Made by a program: the position numbers. Shown here one piece after another: positions 1-64,000 of a stretch of 64,000 nt of DNA. The first letter of the stretch is position 1. The number at the start of each line of letters is the position of its first letter. The stretch comes from Octopus vulgaris (lineage: Eukaryota): contig OX597821.1 of the NCBI GenBank assembly GCA_951406725.2, positions 106,888,001 to 106,952,000 of the forward strand. Reading direction: 5' to 3'.

Positions 1-3000
1 AAATGTCTCATAAACACCTTCCACGCTGCAATTGTTTTCGTTCCAGCACACGATCTATAATACAGGGTAAAATAAATAAATTAATAATTAATAATTTTAC
101 CAAGTAGACAGTACGTTAAAATTACCTTTTTATGTGAATTATACATACTATTTTGTAATTATATATATAATTATAATCAGGAGTCAGCTTATTGATTCGC
201 CACGTACTGAATTAGAAATAGACGCTAATATCTTTACAACTACTATAAATATCTCCGAGACAGTAACACACTTTTTACTCCCTGATCGAATCTACAGTTT
301 TCTGCAGGAGTTTTCGTAATACGCGCGTGGATATAATGGATAAATATGTAATCACATTCGGTTGTATATTTTGGGGAGTGCAGTTGAATATGCGATGGTA
401 CTTGATCGCGTACATAGTTAACCCTAACACTCGCAAATTTATACCTCAAAATATCACAATGAGAAGAAATGTAGGTAACTATAATTTACTTTAATTTCGA
501 ATCACATCCGTGGTAAATCGAAATCGAGTGGATTCATCAATTTTTTTTTTGGCTTACAAAAAATGTATGTTACTGTCTCGGAGATATTTATGGTAACTGA
601 AAAGACATTAGCGTCTATTTCTAATTCGGTACGTGGCGAAGCAATTAGCGGAGTCCTGATTATAATTATGTGTACAATTATAGAATATTTTGAGTATATA
701 TATATATTATATTGAGGGTACTACTATTCCACACGCTAAAGAGGGACCAATGAGGTCATGCGGTCAAAAAAAGAATTTTTTTAATGATTTGCTTTGAAGT
801 TTTGCATTCGGTAAAATTTTGTTTATTTTAGTAGTTTTGACCGCATTGGTCCCTCTTTAGCGTGTGGTATCTAAGAATAGTAGTACCATCAATATAATAT
901 AAATAAATATTTTCAAAGTGGAAAAATTTACGGATTTTTTCTCTTACGAATTTTTTCACGCTAACTACTGATAATTTCTTTTAAAGATTTTATTCTCAAT
1001 TGTTAAAAATATATATATATATATATATATATATATATATATATATATATATGGATGGATGTATATATGTGTGTATGCGTGTAACGTATGTGTGTGTATG
1101 TATGTGTGTGAGTGTGGATATACATGTTTAGTAGGTGCAGCCAATGGTTCTCCCTTTGGGATTAAGACTCAATGCGTATATCACCAAAACGAATGCCGCG
1201 TATCATTTATTTAGTCCGCCAGTATCTCTAATATTCCAACATCATAAATAATTGGTCCCTATCAAACGGGCCAATGTGCTGTCTATATTGATATCATTGA
1301 AGAAATCGAACACTTGTACACGAAGCATATTGCCTCAATGTAAGAGATCCGTTTGAGAGATACGCCAAAATTTCTACGACTTTGCTCGATAGAACAAAGA
1401 GAAAATTATGCGATTCTATATTTCTGATAGATTCTGAAGCGTTGGTACTAAAAGTTATTTTAATACCTGAACGGATCACCACTGTATAGTGGCAAACAAA
1501 AGATCGAAAGCTAGATACCACAATAGCTTTGTGATTAAATATCCTACCGAAATTCGTAATAGATATACATGAATGAATGTAGATCGTGTCATAATATAAA
1601 GTGATGCCATCGGACACGAAGGATGCGGCGTAGACAGAGGTTATCGAAGGATTCTAGTCGCTTAATATCTTACACCCTCATCGTCCATGACTCGCTGCCG
1701 TAAAGGAGAATCGTTCGCACTAGTGCTTGGTAGAATTCATCTACAAGTGCTTGGAGAATTCATCTACGAAGCAATAGCCCAAGTTCCCCTTCAGGGTTGA
1801 CGAAAGCGATGTGGTGGACAACGAAAAACCTGGTTGATGACAGTCAAGTCTGATCTGGAACCCTATTTAGACCCCCATATCAACGGCGTTCGCTGATGGA
1901 TTAAGGAGTGGTTGGAGACCACGCGGTCGTTAGCCTCAAATCACCAGGTCTGCTCGGTGTTTGTGCAGGCTGCAGCATTGAGGATGAATGAAGTCAGCTC
2001 AACCCACCCCGGATGAATGCTGTCTAAAGACAAGATATAATATAAACCGACCATCTACCAACTAAAACTTAAGACGATCCTAATTTGCGGAAAGTAAGAA
2101 AACCGAGGGTACGAAATTTGGATTCCATCATTCACCAAGTACCGATGAAAGAAAATGGATCAGCGATAGTGCAGCTATACCAAAGTCGGTGCTCGAGCAT
2201 GACTACAGCCTACACATTGAAAGAAGTAAGAGATGAAACGTAAAAAGAGAAAATTAAGATTTGATATTATGAAGTTATCGTAAAAGATACTCACTGATTT
2301 ATTCAAATGAACTCCACACCAGAACAACAGTATCAAATATATGAAGCACCCTATCATCACCATTGCTAAATATAGGTGAGAGCTGATTTCAATACTTGGT
2401 GAGTCATTTATAATCACGTAAGTTGCAACGCAACTGCAAAGAATGGAAGAAAGTACGATAAATCCTGATGTTAGTTGTAAATATTCATTTACAAATTTCA
2501 ATTTCCTACTCATAATATTATGAGCGTCACATATTTCTGTGATATCTTTGTGCTTCTTGATGAAATTTGAATGGTCGGATTGCTTCTCCGTTACAAATCG
2601 TTCAGCTTCGTTTGCCAACTTGTTGAACTCATAGCTGAGTGTAAATCCGATTAACAAGTCTACGTATAGATCAACTACCAAACAGACAGCGGAAATGCAA
2701 ATAAATGTAGCTTGAATTGTTAAAAACGAAAATTTGAAGACATTGTTTGATATCGGATATGTAAAATATGCCAACAAGTTTTTACTAAAGCATGGCAACA
2801 CGAAATCTATAAATATGTTAGAAAAGGTCGTTACGCATATAAATGCATAAAATACCGTAAATGAATATAAAAGAATTAACTTGCGGCATTTTCTACCTTC
2901 ATTTTCAAGTTTGATTTCGGCAAATTCTTCAGTCAGTAGCTTAAATTTAGATAGGTTGAAGATTTTCAACGAAGTAAAGATATAAATACAAACTCTGAAG

Positions 3001-63000: not shown

Positions 63001-64000
63001 ACAAGCTTTTTTCATTGAAAAATACAGAACATTTCTTAATATGCACGTATAACCAACTTTTATCTTTTAAAATATTTCAATTCACAATTACATCACTGTA
63101 CATAAATCCCCTCACTAAACAAATTTTTCGAAACCCTTTCTTTTTGTCTGTACCCCTACCCTTACCGAAAGCCGAACAGTTATCTCCCTTACCAACAAAA
63201 ATAACAATAATAACGATAACAGAATACCTCCCCTTATTTTTTCTACTTGTGAAGTCATTCACTCGTAAATATCATTACACACAACACGGGCAAAATTTCG
63301 TCTTAAGAAAATAGATATTCAAATAAGTAAACCACAATATCATGAATAGAGAAAGCGAACTGTTGATATATTAAAAATTATATTAAAACTATGTAAAGTA
63401 TGTGTATTTTCCTTAGTTAATTTCTTACACACACACACACACACATATATATATATATATATATATATATAAATATATATCTACTATGGCACTGTTGCAA
63501 TTATATCAGTTGCGTAGTTGTTTACTTGGTAATTTTAATAACGATAATAGGTTTGAACATTTTTGCAATCATAACAATCCGCTTTCCAGGTAATGTGCTA
63601 TTATTTTCTAGCTACGATTTGAGTGGATAAAATGTCTGTTTGGGGTGAACAGCGTAAATCACATCAAAACATCTCGAACATAATATATCATTGTATGTAC
63701 TGTCTTTTATATTTCATTTGTTGCAATCAATACACTGGGGCCATGCTGGGCCACCGCCTTACAAATTTTAAGTCTACCTCACTACTTACTTCTTTATTTA
63801 CTTATACTACTGGCCGGAATTGCTGAACCGCTAAGTACGGATACGTTAACACAGAAACACCGATTGTCAAGCAATTGAGGGGTGGACACACACACACAAA
63901 CACTCTCACATATATACATATATATATGAATATACATACATATATATATATATATATATGAAAAGGATTCCTCTCAGGTTCTGTCTATCGAATTTACTCA

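What the first reader, a model, noticed from the sequence alone, without database searches (positions are those of the whole stretch)
1..64000. Recent tandem expansion of at least four GRL loci by 21-23 kb segmental duplication
Seen: the whole cassette (B, A, constant exons and intronic transposons) repeats. Parts of four loci are visible and the array continues off both ends. There are two nested levels of diversification: an old exon duplication (A versus B, highly diverged) and young whole-locus duplications. Inference: an actively evolving chemoreceptor array that automated annotation would fragment or miss.
Basis: partly seen in the sequence, partly recalled or inferred. Interest (0 to 1): 0.75.

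Follow-up and report, generated by a model that had tools for sequence, protein, structure and literature searches.

The report
Tandem octopus gustatory-receptor-like gene array
The window holds head-to-tail copies of a 21-23 kb gene cassette for an insect-type taste-receptor-like membrane protein, apparently from an octopus; this is a real but fairly ordinary way for receptor families to grow.

Summary
Self-BLAST shows direct repeats with a period of 21.2-23.1 kb and 87-98% identity. They tile the whole window as about 2.9 units.

All genes lie on the minus strand. Each unit carries:
- a 951-nt first exon A, intact in 3 of 3 copies;
- a paralogous first exon B, 33% identical to A. It is intact in 1 of 3 copies and shares a 155-bp deletion in the other two;
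- three small shared exons of 69, 90 and 54 nt plus stop, all with AG/GT splice sites and phase-0 introns.

Parts of four loci are present.

Gustatory-receptor-like (GRL) identity is supported by several lines:
- an AlphaFold model of exon A matches only insect OR/GR structures at TM 0.43-0.64, against 0.24 or less for everything else;
- the last exon carries a TY-5 hydrophobic-Q motif;
- there are three 3' phase-0 introns;
- relatives pass the Pfam 7tm_7 cut-off.

The units are mosaics. Unit 2 is about 1-1.7% from unit 3 over its 3' 13 kb, but about 0.9% from unit 1 over exon A, so unequal exchange or gene conversion has acted.

Three points are not supported or not shown. No transposon-coding sequence was found in the introns. 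No RNA or reads were available, so splicing is untested. Chemosensory function is inferred. Octopus sinensis and O. bimaculoides relatives are already annotated as uncharacterized multi-isoform genes.

The parts
9258..10208 (-). Exon A, locus 1 (A1). First coding exon of 317 codons, from ATG to ...NKS, followed by a GTAAGT donor. Intact.
   Evidence: ORF list, translation, tblastn with P0001 at 43% identity, codon comparison.
2295..3245 (-). Exon B, locus 1 (B1). Alternative first coding exon of 317 codons with a GTGAGT donor. It is the only intact B copy. The constant exons of this locus lie off the left end of the window.
30449..31399 (-). Exon A, locus 2 (A2). Intact. Differs from A1 at 9 of 951 nt.
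   Evidence: (donor). Pfam 7tm_7 at 24.9 bits. AlphaFold model and Foldseek search.
23629..24424 (-). Exon B, locus 2 (B2). Pseudo-exon with an internal 155-bp deletion that shifts the frame.
   Evidence: DNA alignment and split ORFs.
20083..20151 (-). Constant exon c1, locus 2 (69 nt, 23 codons). AG acceptor, GT donor, phase 0.
   Evidence: Amino-acid sequence identical to residues of O. sinensis protein P0001.
19084..19173 (-). Constant exon c2, locus 2 (90 nt, 30 codons). Phase 0 on both sides.
17170..17226 (-). Constant exon c3, locus 2 (18 codons plus stop). Encodes the TM7 end with the T-Y-5 hydrophobic-Q motif.
   Evidence: The motif definition comes from PMC7746228.
53462..54412 (-). 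Exon A, locus 3 (A3). Intact. Differs from A1 and A2 by 38 and 41 nt, or 22 and 24 amino acids.
46806..47542 (-). Exon B, locus 3 (B3). Pseudo-exon. It shares the B2 deletion and adds an 82-bp deletion, a GAA-to-TAA stop and a 1-bp insertion.
43160..43228 (-). Constant exon c1, locus 3. Nucleotide-identical to the locus 2 copy.
42161..42250 (-). Constant exon c2, locus 3. Nucleotide-identical to the locus 2 copy.
40265..40321 (-). Constant exon c3, locus 3.
61992..62048 (-). Constant exon c3, locus 4. It carries two synonymous differences. The rest of this locus lies off the right end of the window.
17170..40264 (.). Repeat unit 2 (23,095 bp, phase set arbitrarily at the c3 stop). It is a chimera. 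Positions 17170 to about 30300 resemble unit 3 (1.0-1.7% differences). Positions about 30373-32714 resemble unit 1 (about 0.9%).
   Evidence: MAFFT alignment of the units and window or site counts.
40265..61991 (.). Repeat unit 3 (21,727 bp).
9182..11527 (.). High-identity tract shared with 30373-32714 (98-100% in 500-column bins), flanked by 5-6% divergence on both sides. It covers exon A and about 1.3 kb upstream. Read as a gene-conversion tract.
54945..57990 (.). Unit-3-specific segment upstream of A3. It is unalignable with the corresponding part of units 1 and 2 (about 48% mismatches). It contains a 187-codon ORF (56373-56933, minus strand) with weak GIY-YIG similarity. It is intergenic, not intronic.
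   Evidence: Pfam E = 0.002. ESM Atlas hits to 'GIY-YIG domain-containing protein' clusters score 0.97.

Best explanation
The window is part of a head-to-tail array of at least four copies of one gene cassette. It appears to come from an octopus genome. The cassette encodes a gustatory-receptor-like (GRL) protein of the insect OR/GR seven-transmembrane ion-channel superfamily.

Gene structure. Each gene runs on the minus strand and has:
- two alternative, self-starting 5' exons, A upstream and B about 6 kb further on, each encoding helices 1-6, which in insect relatives form the ligand-binding part;
- three small shared 3' exons encoding the TM6-TM7 loop and the pore-lining TM7.
One locus could therefore make two receptors with different sensing halves and the same pore and assembly half, as Drosophila Gr39a and Gr28b do.

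History. The cassette multiplied recently by unequal crossing-over between units. It keeps being reshuffled by exchange or gene conversion. Exon A is kept open in every copy. Exon B was already dead before units 2 and 3 separated.

Shown: the repeat structure, exon structure and splice signals, the fold class, the mosaic identity pattern and the B lesions.
Inferred: actual splicing of A and B to the shared exons, channel function, chemosensory role, the mechanism of duplication and the source species.
For: Repeat. One search gives kb-scale colinear direct HSPs at three offsets.

Exons.
- Searches show that all family ORFs are on the minus strand.
- One search shows that 7 of 7 constant exons have a polypyrimidine-AG acceptor, and that the four c1 and c2 copies have GTAAAT donors. 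All three introns are phase 0.
- Searches show GTAAGT and GTGAGT donors right after the last codon of A and B.
- No constant-type exon lies between A and B (0 hits outside the 13 exon intervals).

Family.
- The exon A2 model has pLDDT 82.4 and pTM 0.80. Its 19 listed insect OR/Orco/GR matches have TMq 0.43-0.64. All other listed rows have TMq <= 0.24.
- The full-length relative P0001 has pLDDT 74.9. All 19 rows listed through rank 23 are insect OR/Orco/GR at TMq 0.34-0.60. Later rows have TMq <= 0.22.
- P0001 has seven hydrophobic segments.
- For Pfam 7tm_7, A2 scores 24.9 bits against a cut-off of 26.6. Relatives P0018 (30.3 bits) and P0010 (27.4 bits) pass. P0010 and P0016 align their shared C-terminus to profile positions up to 367 of 370.
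- The TM7 motif and the 3' phase-0 intron criteria come from PMC7746228 and PMC5203786 (passages read).

Shared-exon design.
- Database proteins with first exons 30-50% identical to each other carry the same C-terminus.
- O. sinensis LOC118764607 has isoforms X2 and X4 with different N-terminal parts.

Mosaic.
- U2-U3: 45/4437 and 142/8411 differences over the 3' 13 kb, where U1 differs by about 6%.
- U1-U2: 14/1599 over exon A, where U3 differs by 4.3-4.6%.
- U1-U3: 44/1550 in the intergenic block, where U2 differs by 7.7-8.7%.
- Informative-site counts switch sharply at unit-2 position about 30,000-30,500.

Age. B2 and B3 share one deletion. A2-A3 tree distance is 0.08, against 0.15 for the presumed O. 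bimaculoides/O. sinensis ortholog pair (88% identity).
Against: - No transcript or read data were available, so neither splicing nor copy number is verified.
- Sequence evidence for the family is thin. Only 1 of 4 intact window first exons (A2) reaches E <= 0.01 on 7tm_7, and it falls below the curated cut-off. Only 3 of 21 alignment members match at E <= 0.1. P0001 and P0020 do not match. A family profile finds no insect receptor among PDB sequences.
- Foldseek E-values are modest, at best 4.6e-4 and 9.5e-3.
- The C-terminal 42 residues of the P0001 model, which include TM7, have pLDDT < 50.
- The motif's fourth position is T, not F/L/M.
- Selection signals are weak. A3 versus A1/A2 gives dN/dS 0.50. 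A1 versus A2 shows 8 nonsynonymous changes to 1 synonymous, indistinguishable from neutrality by my hand binomial (p of about 0.4). B1 versus B2/B3 gives about 1.2-1.4. Some intact copies may therefore be young pseudogenes-to-be.
- Units 2 and 3 differ by only 1-1.7% over 13 kb, which by itself would be compatible with a falsely duplicated haplotype.
Confidence: 0.8

Rival explanations
1. Assembly artefact. Some or all of the units are allelic haplotypes, or collapsed and re-expanded repeats wrongly laid in tandem. The true locus would then have fewer copies.
For: Units 2 and 3 differ by only 45/4437 (1.0%) and 142/8411 (1.7%) over about 13 kb. Their c1 and c2 exons are nucleotide-identical. 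That range could be allelic in a heterozygous invertebrate; this last point is my own knowledge and was not tested.
Against: - Four unit copies cannot come from two haplotypes.
- The same units 2 and 3 differ by 4.6% across exon A. They are unalignable for about 3 kb upstream of it (1123/2344 mismatches) and differ by 8.7% in the next block.
- They differ in length by 1.4 kb with many indels.
- B3 has three lesions that B2 lacks.
- Unit 1 and unit 4 are 5-6% from both.
- No N runs or gaps occur in the window.
Confidence: 0.08
2. One complex transcription unit rather than four genes. The whole array, with further variable exons outside the window, would work like a clustered-protocadherin or Gr39a super-locus. 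Upstream variable exons could then splice to any downstream constant set, so 'loci' would be cassettes of one gene.
For: - All exons share one strand.
- Window constants are amino-acid-identical to those of O. sinensis LOC118764608 isoform X1 and of fragment P0016. The first exons of those proteins are neither A nor B: 43-48% identity to A and 38-40% to B. More variable exons therefore use this type of constant set.
Against: Each unit has its own complete constant set ending in a stop codon. Each also has 7-9 kb between that stop and the next A exon downstream. This is the normal look of separate genes. Nothing in the window tests read-through.
Confidence: 0.1
3. A real GRL array that is not a chemoreceptor array. 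The proteins would serve another role, such as developmental, light or internal sensing, or most copies would be non-functional by-products of duplication.
For: - GRLs outside arthropods have no established chemosensory role (passage in PMC6150509; PMC5203786 notes non-chemosensory roles for some GRLs).
- B is dead in 2 of 3 copies.
- dN/dS values are 0.5-2.
- The family is tiny in public data: 16 representatives at E <= 1e-3 among 1.84 billion.
Against: Tandem, fast-turnover arrays with variable ligand-side exons are typical of chemoreceptors in insects (Gr39a abstract). Exon A is kept open in 3 of 3 copies, although the flanks carry many indels.
Confidence: 0.3

Closest known systems
Octopus sinensis LOC118764608 (isoform X1, P0001) and neighbouring LOC118764607 (isoforms X2, X4); Octopus bimaculoides LOC106880719 (isoform X2). 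All are annotated 'uncharacterized protein'.
   Same: - Same protein family and same exon logic.
- The 71 residues encoded by the window's c1-c3 are identical to the P0001 C-terminus.
- LOC118764607 and LOC106880719 carry a slightly different constant set.
- Precomputed Pfam PF08395 is present on two of them.
   Different: - Their first exons are only 33-43% identical to A and 38% or less to B (P0001).
- Neither A nor B has a close match in the protein collections searched. The best is 43% for A over the whole exon, and about 55-61% for B over whole or partial stretches.
- Whether the window lies inside one of these named loci could not be checked.
Drosophila Gr39a (and Gr28b, Gr23a): alternatively spliced gustatory receptor loci
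   Same: Several large 5' exons are alternatively joined to three small conserved 3' exons. Exon duplication, pseudogenisation and loss occur within the locus (abstract of PMC2204066). Here there are two large exons, three small phase-0 exons and a decaying exon B.
   Different: - Here the entire cassette, constant exons included, is itself tandemly multiplied.
- Introns are kilobases long (3.4 and 10.3 kb).
- Sequence identity to insect GRs is 10-14% in the structural alignments.
- Splicing is not demonstrated.
Animal GRLs / 7TMIC superfamily (Robertson 2015 criteria as quoted in PMC7746228 and PMC5203786)
   Same: Seven hydrophobic segments, the OR/GR fold, the TM7 motif and three C-terminal phase-0 introns with the last one in TM7.
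   Different: - The lineage appears narrow, with 16 representatives in 1.84 billion.
- The motif's last position is T.
- Pfam scores sit around the cut-off.
Octopus chemotactile receptors (CRs, nicotinic-receptor-derived)
   Same: A lineage-expanded candidate sensory ion-channel family in octopus. CR expansion is described in PMC11526382 (passages read).
   Different: CRs are an unrelated fold, being pentameric Cys-loop channels. They have demonstrated sucker expression and ligands. Nothing of that kind is known here.

Membership tests
GR/GRL (insect-type 7TM ion channel, Pfam 7tm_7) | Seven transmembrane segments | tested here: met
   A Kyte-Doolittle scan of the full-length relative P0001 gives seven hydrophobic regions. 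Six fall in the part equivalent to exon A. The seventh falls in the part equivalent to c3. The exon A2 model is an all-helical bundle. The window's own exons were not joined.
GR/GRL (insect-type 7TM ion channel, Pfam 7tm_7) | Intracellular N-terminus (inverted topology relative to GPCRs) | not tested
   No topology predictor was run.
GR/GRL (insect-type 7TM ion channel, Pfam 7tm_7) | Significant match to the 7tm_7 profile | tested here: inconclusive
   A2 scores 24.9 bits (E = 1.6e-5), below the 26.6 cut-off. A1, A3 and B1 give no hit at E <= 0.01. Relatives P0018 (30.3 bits) and P0010 (27.4 bits) pass. P0019 scores 25.1 bits, P0016 scores 15.7 bits, and P0001 and P0020 give none.
GR/GRL (insect-type 7TM ion channel, Pfam 7tm_7) | TM7 motif (T/S)Yhhhhh(Q/K/E)(F/L/M) | tested here: met
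   c3 encodes T-Y-I-L-V-V-I-Q-T in 3 of 3 copies. Three of the four fixed positions are met, and the last is T. The source paper calls the motif diagnostic but not definitive.
GR/GRL (insect-type 7TM ion channel, Pfam 7tm_7) | Three phase-0 introns near the 3' end, the last within TM7 | tested here: met
   The A/B-c1, c1-c2 and c2-c3 introns are all phase 0. The last lies 6 codons before the TY of the motif. The criterion is quoted in PMC5203786. Exact positional homology with insect introns was not aligned.
GR/GRL (insect-type 7TM ion channel, Pfam 7tm_7) | Fold of solved insect OR/Orco/GR subunits | tested here: met
   Every PDB match with TM-score above 0.3 is an insect OR, Orco or GR. The best TMq values are 0.60 (Orco, P0001 model) and 0.64 (AgamOR28, exon A2 model).
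GR/GRL (insect-type 7TM ion channel, Pfam 7tm_7) | Tetrameric ligand-gated cation channel activity | not testable with these tools
   This needs expression and electrophysiology or cryo-EM. No complex prediction was run.
Alternatively spliced GR locus (Gr39a/Gr28b type) | Two or more large 5' exons, each with its own start codon and donor, upstream of one shared set of small 3' exons | tested here: met
   A and B each start at ATG and end with a GT donor in phase 0. There is no constant-type exon between them. One c1-c2-c3 set lies downstream.
Alternatively spliced GR locus (Gr39a/Gr28b type) | Transcripts that join each 5' exon to the shared exons | not testable with these tools
   No RNA data were available. 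The only evidence is indirect: named isoforms of related octopus loci share C-termini.
Tandem segmental duplication maintained by unequal exchange | Head-to-tail units in the same orientation, with identity blocks whose nearest neighbour changes along the unit | tested here: met
   Three blocks each have a different closest pair: U2=U3, U1=U2 and U1=U3.

The most novel reading that the evidence does not exclude
Octopuses may possess a second, so far undescribed ionotropic chemoreceptor system alongside the nicotinic-derived chemotactile receptors. It would be a lineage-restricted GRL family built on a variable-exon/constant-exon plan. Its whole cassettes would be multiplied and recombined by unequal exchange. 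Exchange breakpoints would sit at the edge of the ligand-side exon, as at about 30.0-30.5 kb here, so that new combinations of sensing exon and regulatory or constant context arise within a species.
Probability: 0.2. Interest if true: 0.7.

Novelty: new member of a known kind. Interest (0 to 1): 0.35.

Why it matters
GRLs are the non-arthropod relatives of insect taste and smell receptors. The passages I read say their functions outside arthropods are mostly unknown.

A young array that is still recombining, with alternative ligand-side exons, would be a convenient place to ask two questions. The first is whether cephalopods use this channel family for sensing. The second is how receptor repertoires grow: exon duplication, cassette duplication, conversion and exon death are all visible within 64 kb.

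Practically, the window shows that gene models here need manual curation. Neither A nor B has a close match in the protein collections searched, and two B copies are pseudo-exons that an annotator could wrongly include.

Tandem growth of receptor genes is itself commonplace, so the finding is solid rather than surprising.

Tried and rejected
- Transposon content. Pfam scans covered 16 + 71 ORFs of >= 75-90 aa (71 of the 120 ORFs listed). I left out family exons and most unit 3/4 ORFs that are syntenic copies. A further scan covered 115 of 117 ORFs of 50-74 aa from unit 2, the unit-3-specific segment and the first 1.1 kb. The two dropped ORFs lie on the exon strand within exon A2, in other reading frames. 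There were no transposase, RT or integrase hits, only a weak GIY-YIG match (E = 0.002). A six-frame read-through of whole units was not accepted by the tool because of stop codons, so I sent the shorter ORFs instead.\n- Rfam at gathering threshold gave 0 matches, and ARAGORN found 0 tRNAs. There is therefore no evidence for tRNA-derived SINEs.\n- A word-indexed protein search with B1 scored none of 717 candidates, although tblastn shows clear relatives. This is a limit of the prefilter and does not show that B has no relatives.\n- A family profile search against PDB sequences gave only two chance-level ribosomal-protein hits (E = 0.37 and 0.49).\n- listing of cluster members for six relatives was unavailable. 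Accessions, isoform lists and contig placement of the named octopus loci therefore stayed unchecked.\n- Literature searches: 'gustatory receptor-like' + octopus; GRL, gustatory receptor, mollusc, cephalopod; octopus + gustatory receptor + chemotactile receptor + genome; the three LOC names (0 papers); 7tm_7 + Octopus. Term finds in PMC9998090 and bioRxiv 2023.08.30.555482 also returned no mention of molluscs or octopus. I found no description of cephalopod GRLs in this library. Robertson 2015 and the octopus genome papers were not read, and no supplements were opened. They may list such genes.\n- Not joined. Full-length evidence rests on the database protein P0001.\n- Not checked. The genome-contig collection holds bacteria and archaea only and was not used. 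As a result, flanking sequence, unit count beyond the window, orthologous arrays and the source species stayed unchecked.\n- complex prediction (tetramer) was not run.
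Full report
**What is in the sequence**

The window has 64,000 bases, no N and about 33% G+C. It aligns to itself in long colinear direct blocks:
- 14662-20776 with 37733-43841 (95.4%);
- 26109-31960 with 49185-54982 (95.8%);
- 6597-12410 with 27794-33605 (94.7%);
- 38306-41946 with 60044-63688 (92.9%).

Many shorter blocks lie at the same offsets of about 21.2, 23.1 and 21.7 kb. Chance cannot produce this, since E = 0 for kilobase HSPs.

**Genes**

All long open frames of interest lie on the minus strand. There are two kinds of large exon.

*Exon A* is at 9258-10208, 30449-31399 and 53462-54412.
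- It has 317 codons from an ATG to ...NKS, followed directly by a GTAAGT donor.
- All three copies are open.

*Exon B* is at 2295-3245, 23629-24424 and 46806-47542.
- It has the same length and layout in its one intact copy, B1, with a GTGAGT donor.
- B2 has a 155-bp internal deletion that breaks the frame.
- B3 shares that deletion and adds an 82-bp deletion, a GAA-to-TAA stop and a 1-bp insertion.

A and B are 33% identical, 105 of 318 residues.

A word-indexed search with A2 found two relatives among 712 candidates. The better one is a 389-residue Octopus sinensis protein, LOC118764608 isoform X1 (P0001), at 43% identity.

Running P0001 against the window with tblastn located three small exons downstream of each A/B pair. 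I then placed them exactly:
- c1 (69 nt) at 20083-20151 and 43160-43228;
- c2 (90 nt) at 19084-19173 and 42161-42250;
- c3 (54 nt plus stop) at 17170-17226, 40265-40321 and 61992-62048.

All seven have a pyrimidine-rich tract and an AG acceptor. The four c1 and c2 copies have GTAAAT donors. All three introns are phase 0. Their 71 encoded residues are identical to the C-terminus of P0001.

tblastn with all 20 stored family proteins hits only these 13 exon intervals and nothing else at E <= 1e-3. There is therefore no hidden constant set between A and B.

The gene order on the coding strand is A, B, c1, c2, c3. The span is about 14.2 kb (31399 down to 17170 for locus 2), with 7-9 kb between genes.

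On the + strand, the constant exons that follow an A exon belong to the next locus. The window thus cuts four loci:
- locus 1: A and B only;
- loci 2 and 3: complete;
- locus 4: c3 only.

The full-length inferences use the database protein P0001.

**Is it a GRL?**

Sequence evidence alone is marginal.
- Of the four intact window first exons, only A2 matches Pfam 7tm_7. It scores 24.9 bits with E = 1.6e-5, against a cut-off of 26.6.
- Only 3 of 21 family members match at E <= 0.1.
- A family profile finds no insect receptor among PDB sequences.
- Two relatives do pass the curated cut-off: P0018 at 30.3 bits and P0010 at 27.4 bits.
- In P0010 and P0016 the shared C-terminus aligns to the end of the 7tm_7 profile, up to position 367 of 370.

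Structure is clearer.
- An AlphaFold2 model of the window's own exon A2 product was built with a 22-sequence alignment. It has pLDDT 82.4 and pTM 0.80.
- That model matches 19 listed insect OR, Orco and GR chains at TM 0.43-0.64. Every other listed PDB chain, mostly ABC transporters, is at 0.24 or below.
- The model of full-length P0001 has pLDDT 74.9, with the last 42 residues poorly predicted.
- For P0001, all 19 rows listed through rank 23 are insect OR/Orco/GR at TM 0.34-0.60. Later rows are 0.22 or below.
- Foldseek E-values are modest, at 4.6e-4 and 9.5e-3 at best.

Three further criteria used for GRLs are listed in passages of PMC7746228 and PMC5203786. All hold.
- P0001 has seven hydrophobic segments.
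- The TM7 motif (T/S)Yhhhhh(Q/K/E)(F/L/M) appears in c3 as T-Y-ILVVI-Q-T. Three of the four fixed positions are met.
- There are three phase-0 introns at the 3' end, and the last lies inside TM7, 6 codons before the TY.

Topology with the N-terminus inside and channel activity were not tested. I accept the GRL assignment.

The family is narrow in public data. An exhaustive HMMER scan of 1.84 billion representatives found 16 proteins at E <= 1e-3.

**Variable and constant design**

In the family alignment and the sequences, several proteins carry the same or nearly the same C-terminus. Their first-exon parts are only 30-50% identical to each other.
- P0001 and P0016 carry the window's type of constant set.
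- O. sinensis LOC118764607 isoforms X2 and X4, P0010, and O. bimaculoides LOC106880719 X2 carry a variant type.

This design is described for Drosophila Gr39a, with four large alternative exons and three small conserved ones, plus exon gain, pseudogenisation and loss (abstract of PMC2204066).

By analogy with solved insect receptors, the large exon would supply the ligand-side helices. The shared exons would supply the pore-lining TM7 and the contacts between subunits. The review passage describes S7b lining the pore and carrying the motif. This part is inference for the octopus proteins.

In a maximum-likelihood tree of first exons, A2+A3 (100/100) and B1+P0007 (100/100) are separate lineages on an unresolved backbone. 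The tree used 16 of 22 rows. I dropped six fragments with fewer than 250 aligned residues, and A1 was not included.

**History of the units**

I aligned the units with MAFFT, phased at the c3 stop:
- U1: 1-17169;
- U2: 17170-40264;
- U3: 40265-61991;
- U4: 61992-64000.

Substitution differences by block:

| Block (unit-2 coordinates) | U1-U2 | U1-U3 | U2-U3 | U4 vs U2 / U3 |
|---|---|---|---|---|
| 17170-21636 (c3 to beyond c1) | - | - | 45/4437 (1.0%) | 5.1% / 5.1% (first 1.7 kb) |
| 21637-30300 (B and the A-B intron) | 6.1% | 6.3% | 142/8411 (1.7%) | - |
| 30301-31900 (exon A and 0.5 kb upstream) | 14/1599 (0.9%) | 4.3% | 4.6% | - |
| 31901-34840 | 4.9% | about 48% mismatches, unrelated | about 48% mismatches, unrelated | - |
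| 37400-39000 | 7.7% | 44/1550 (2.8%) | 8.7% | - |

In the fourth block the unit-3 sequence, 54945-57990, is unrelated to units 1 and 2.

Counts of sites where two units agree against the third switch abruptly from 'U2=U3' to 'U1=U2' at unit-2 position about 30,000-30,500, next to the exon A donor.

The 98-100% tract between units 1 and 2 (9182-11527 and 30373-32714) has diverged sequence on both sides. It therefore looks like gene conversion rather than a single crossover.

The array is thus a mosaic shaped by repeated exchange, which is also the expected mechanism of its expansion. The mechanism itself is inferred.

B2 and B3 share one deletion, so B was already dead when those units separated.

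On relative age, A2 and A3 are 0.08 substitutions per site apart on the tree. The presumed O. bimaculoides/O. sinensis ortholog pair is 0.15 apart, at 88% identity. This suggests that the unit duplications are younger than that species split, if rates are similar.

**Selection**

Nei-Gojobori estimates:

| Comparison | Differences | dN/dS |
|---|---|---|
| A1 vs A2 | 9 nt: 8 nonsynonymous, 1 synonymous | 2.0 |
| A1 vs A3 | 38 nt, 22 aa | 0.50 |
| A2 vs A3 | 41 nt, 24 aa | 0.50 |
| B1 vs B2 | - | 1.18 |
| B1 vs B3 | - | 1.36 |

- The A1 versus A2 count is too small to distinguish from neutrality. My hand binomial gives p of about 0.4.
- By a hand normal approximation, the A3 comparisons are only marginally below neutrality.
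- There is no demonstrated positive selection, and only weak evidence of constraint.
- 'Actively evolving' is fair for structure, meaning turnover, conversion and exon death. It is not shown for adaptive sequence change.

**Transposons**

I found no transposase, reverse transcriptase or integrase domain in 71 non-family ORFs of >= 75 aa. Nor was there one in the 16 longest ORFs or in 115 ORFs of 50-74 aa.

What is copied with the units is:
- microsatellites such as (AAT)n and (TA)n;
- short dispersed or inverted repeats of 64-251 bp at 78-91% identity (hits under 60 bp were not listed), for example 7006-7148 with 11831-11967, and 149-276 with 687-559 inverted. These may be non-autonomous elements.

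The only mobile-element-like ORF is at 56373-56933 on the minus strand. It has a weak GIY-YIG Pfam match, and ESM Atlas gives GIY-YIG clusters at 0.97. It sits in the unit-3-specific intergenic segment, not in an intron.

**Rivals**

*Haplotype or assembly artefact.* Only the unit 2/3 pair is similar enough over its 3' 13 kb to raise this. The same pair differs by 4.6% at exon A and by a 3-kb non-homologous segment. It also differs in B lesions and by 1.4 kb in length. Four copies cannot come from two haplotypes. Reads would settle it, and none were available.

*One complex locus.* A reading in which cassettes share transcripts cannot be excluded without RNA.

*Non-chemosensory role.* This remains possible, because GRLs outside arthropods lack an established function.

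**What is known**

Relatives are annotated in two octopus genomes as uncharacterized, multi-isoform genes.

My searches of the paper library found no description of cephalopod GRLs or of these loci (finds). Key papers, namely Robertson 2015 and the octopus genome papers, were not read, and neither were any supplements.

Neither A nor B has a close counterpart in the protein collections searched. The best is 43% for A over the whole exon, and about 55-61% for B over whole or partial stretches. Because I do not know the source genome, it is not proof.

The source species is inferred to be an octopus from the identical constant-exon peptides. It was not verified.

**Verdict**

This is a real, well-defined tandem array of GRL genes with alternative first exons, and a new member of a known kind. 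Interest is moderate to low. It makes a clean case study and a curation target, and a possible entry point to an unstudied receptor family in cephalopods. The phenomenon itself is expected for receptor genes.

Noticed in passing
window 54945-57990, ORF 56373-56933 (-): About 3 kb upstream of A3 is unrelated to the corresponding part of units 1 and 2. It holds a 187-codon ORF with weak GIY-YIG nuclease similarity (Pfam E = 0.002; ESM Atlas GIY-YIG clusters score 0.97). It may be a fragment of a mobile element that replaced or was inserted into the A3 upstream region.
   Followed up: partly
window 34841-36466: Unit 2 carries about 1.6 kb that is absent from unit 1 at this point and only partly shared with unit 3. 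It contains an inverted repeat pair, 35084-35251 and 35730-35561 (172 bp, 78%). This accounts for most of the 23.1 versus 21.2 kb difference in period.
   Followed up: partly
window 20456-20577, 21116-21259, 43530-43642, 44241-44405: Long (AAT)n microsatellites of 38-55 copies lie in pairs about 0.6 kb apart in the intron between exon B and c1 of loci 2 and 3. Their copy numbers differ between units. (TA)n arrays lie at 4812, 7893, 14591 and 36986.
   Followed up: no
window 149-276 / 559-687 and syntenic copies at about 21807-22341 and 44953-45485: These are inverted-repeat arms of about 110-138 bp at 79-87% identity, separated by about 280 bp, in the B-to-c1 intron. Their architecture is foldback or MITE-like. 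No coding capacity was found.
   Followed up: no
window 7006-7148, 11831-11967, 28208-28350, 32886-33157, 51276-51418: A dispersed element of about 140 bp at 78-83% identity is present both in the A-B intron and upstream of exon A. At 32886-33157 it occurs as an adjacent inverted pair. It is a candidate short non-autonomous repeat.
   Followed up: no
window 58405-58554: A 41-bp tandem repeat with 3.7 copies and 84% matches, present in unit 3 only. Unit 2 has a 122-column gap there.
   Followed up: no
proteins P0010 vs P0018 (O. sinensis LOC118764607): The same first exon is joined either to a full c1-type exon or to a shortened one that begins 14 residues later. This suggests an alternative 3' splice site inside c1 in the neighbouring locus. 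The window's c1 has the long form. Internal acceptor use here is unknown.
   Followed up: no
window 18997-19488 (-) and 42074-42565 (-): The frame of constant exon c2 stays open for 164 codons. It extends about 105 codons upstream of the AG acceptor and about 29 codons past the GT donor, and is nearly identical in units 2 and 3. It has no Pfam match. It is probably chance in nearly identical young copies, but an extended exon variant is not excluded.
   Followed up: no
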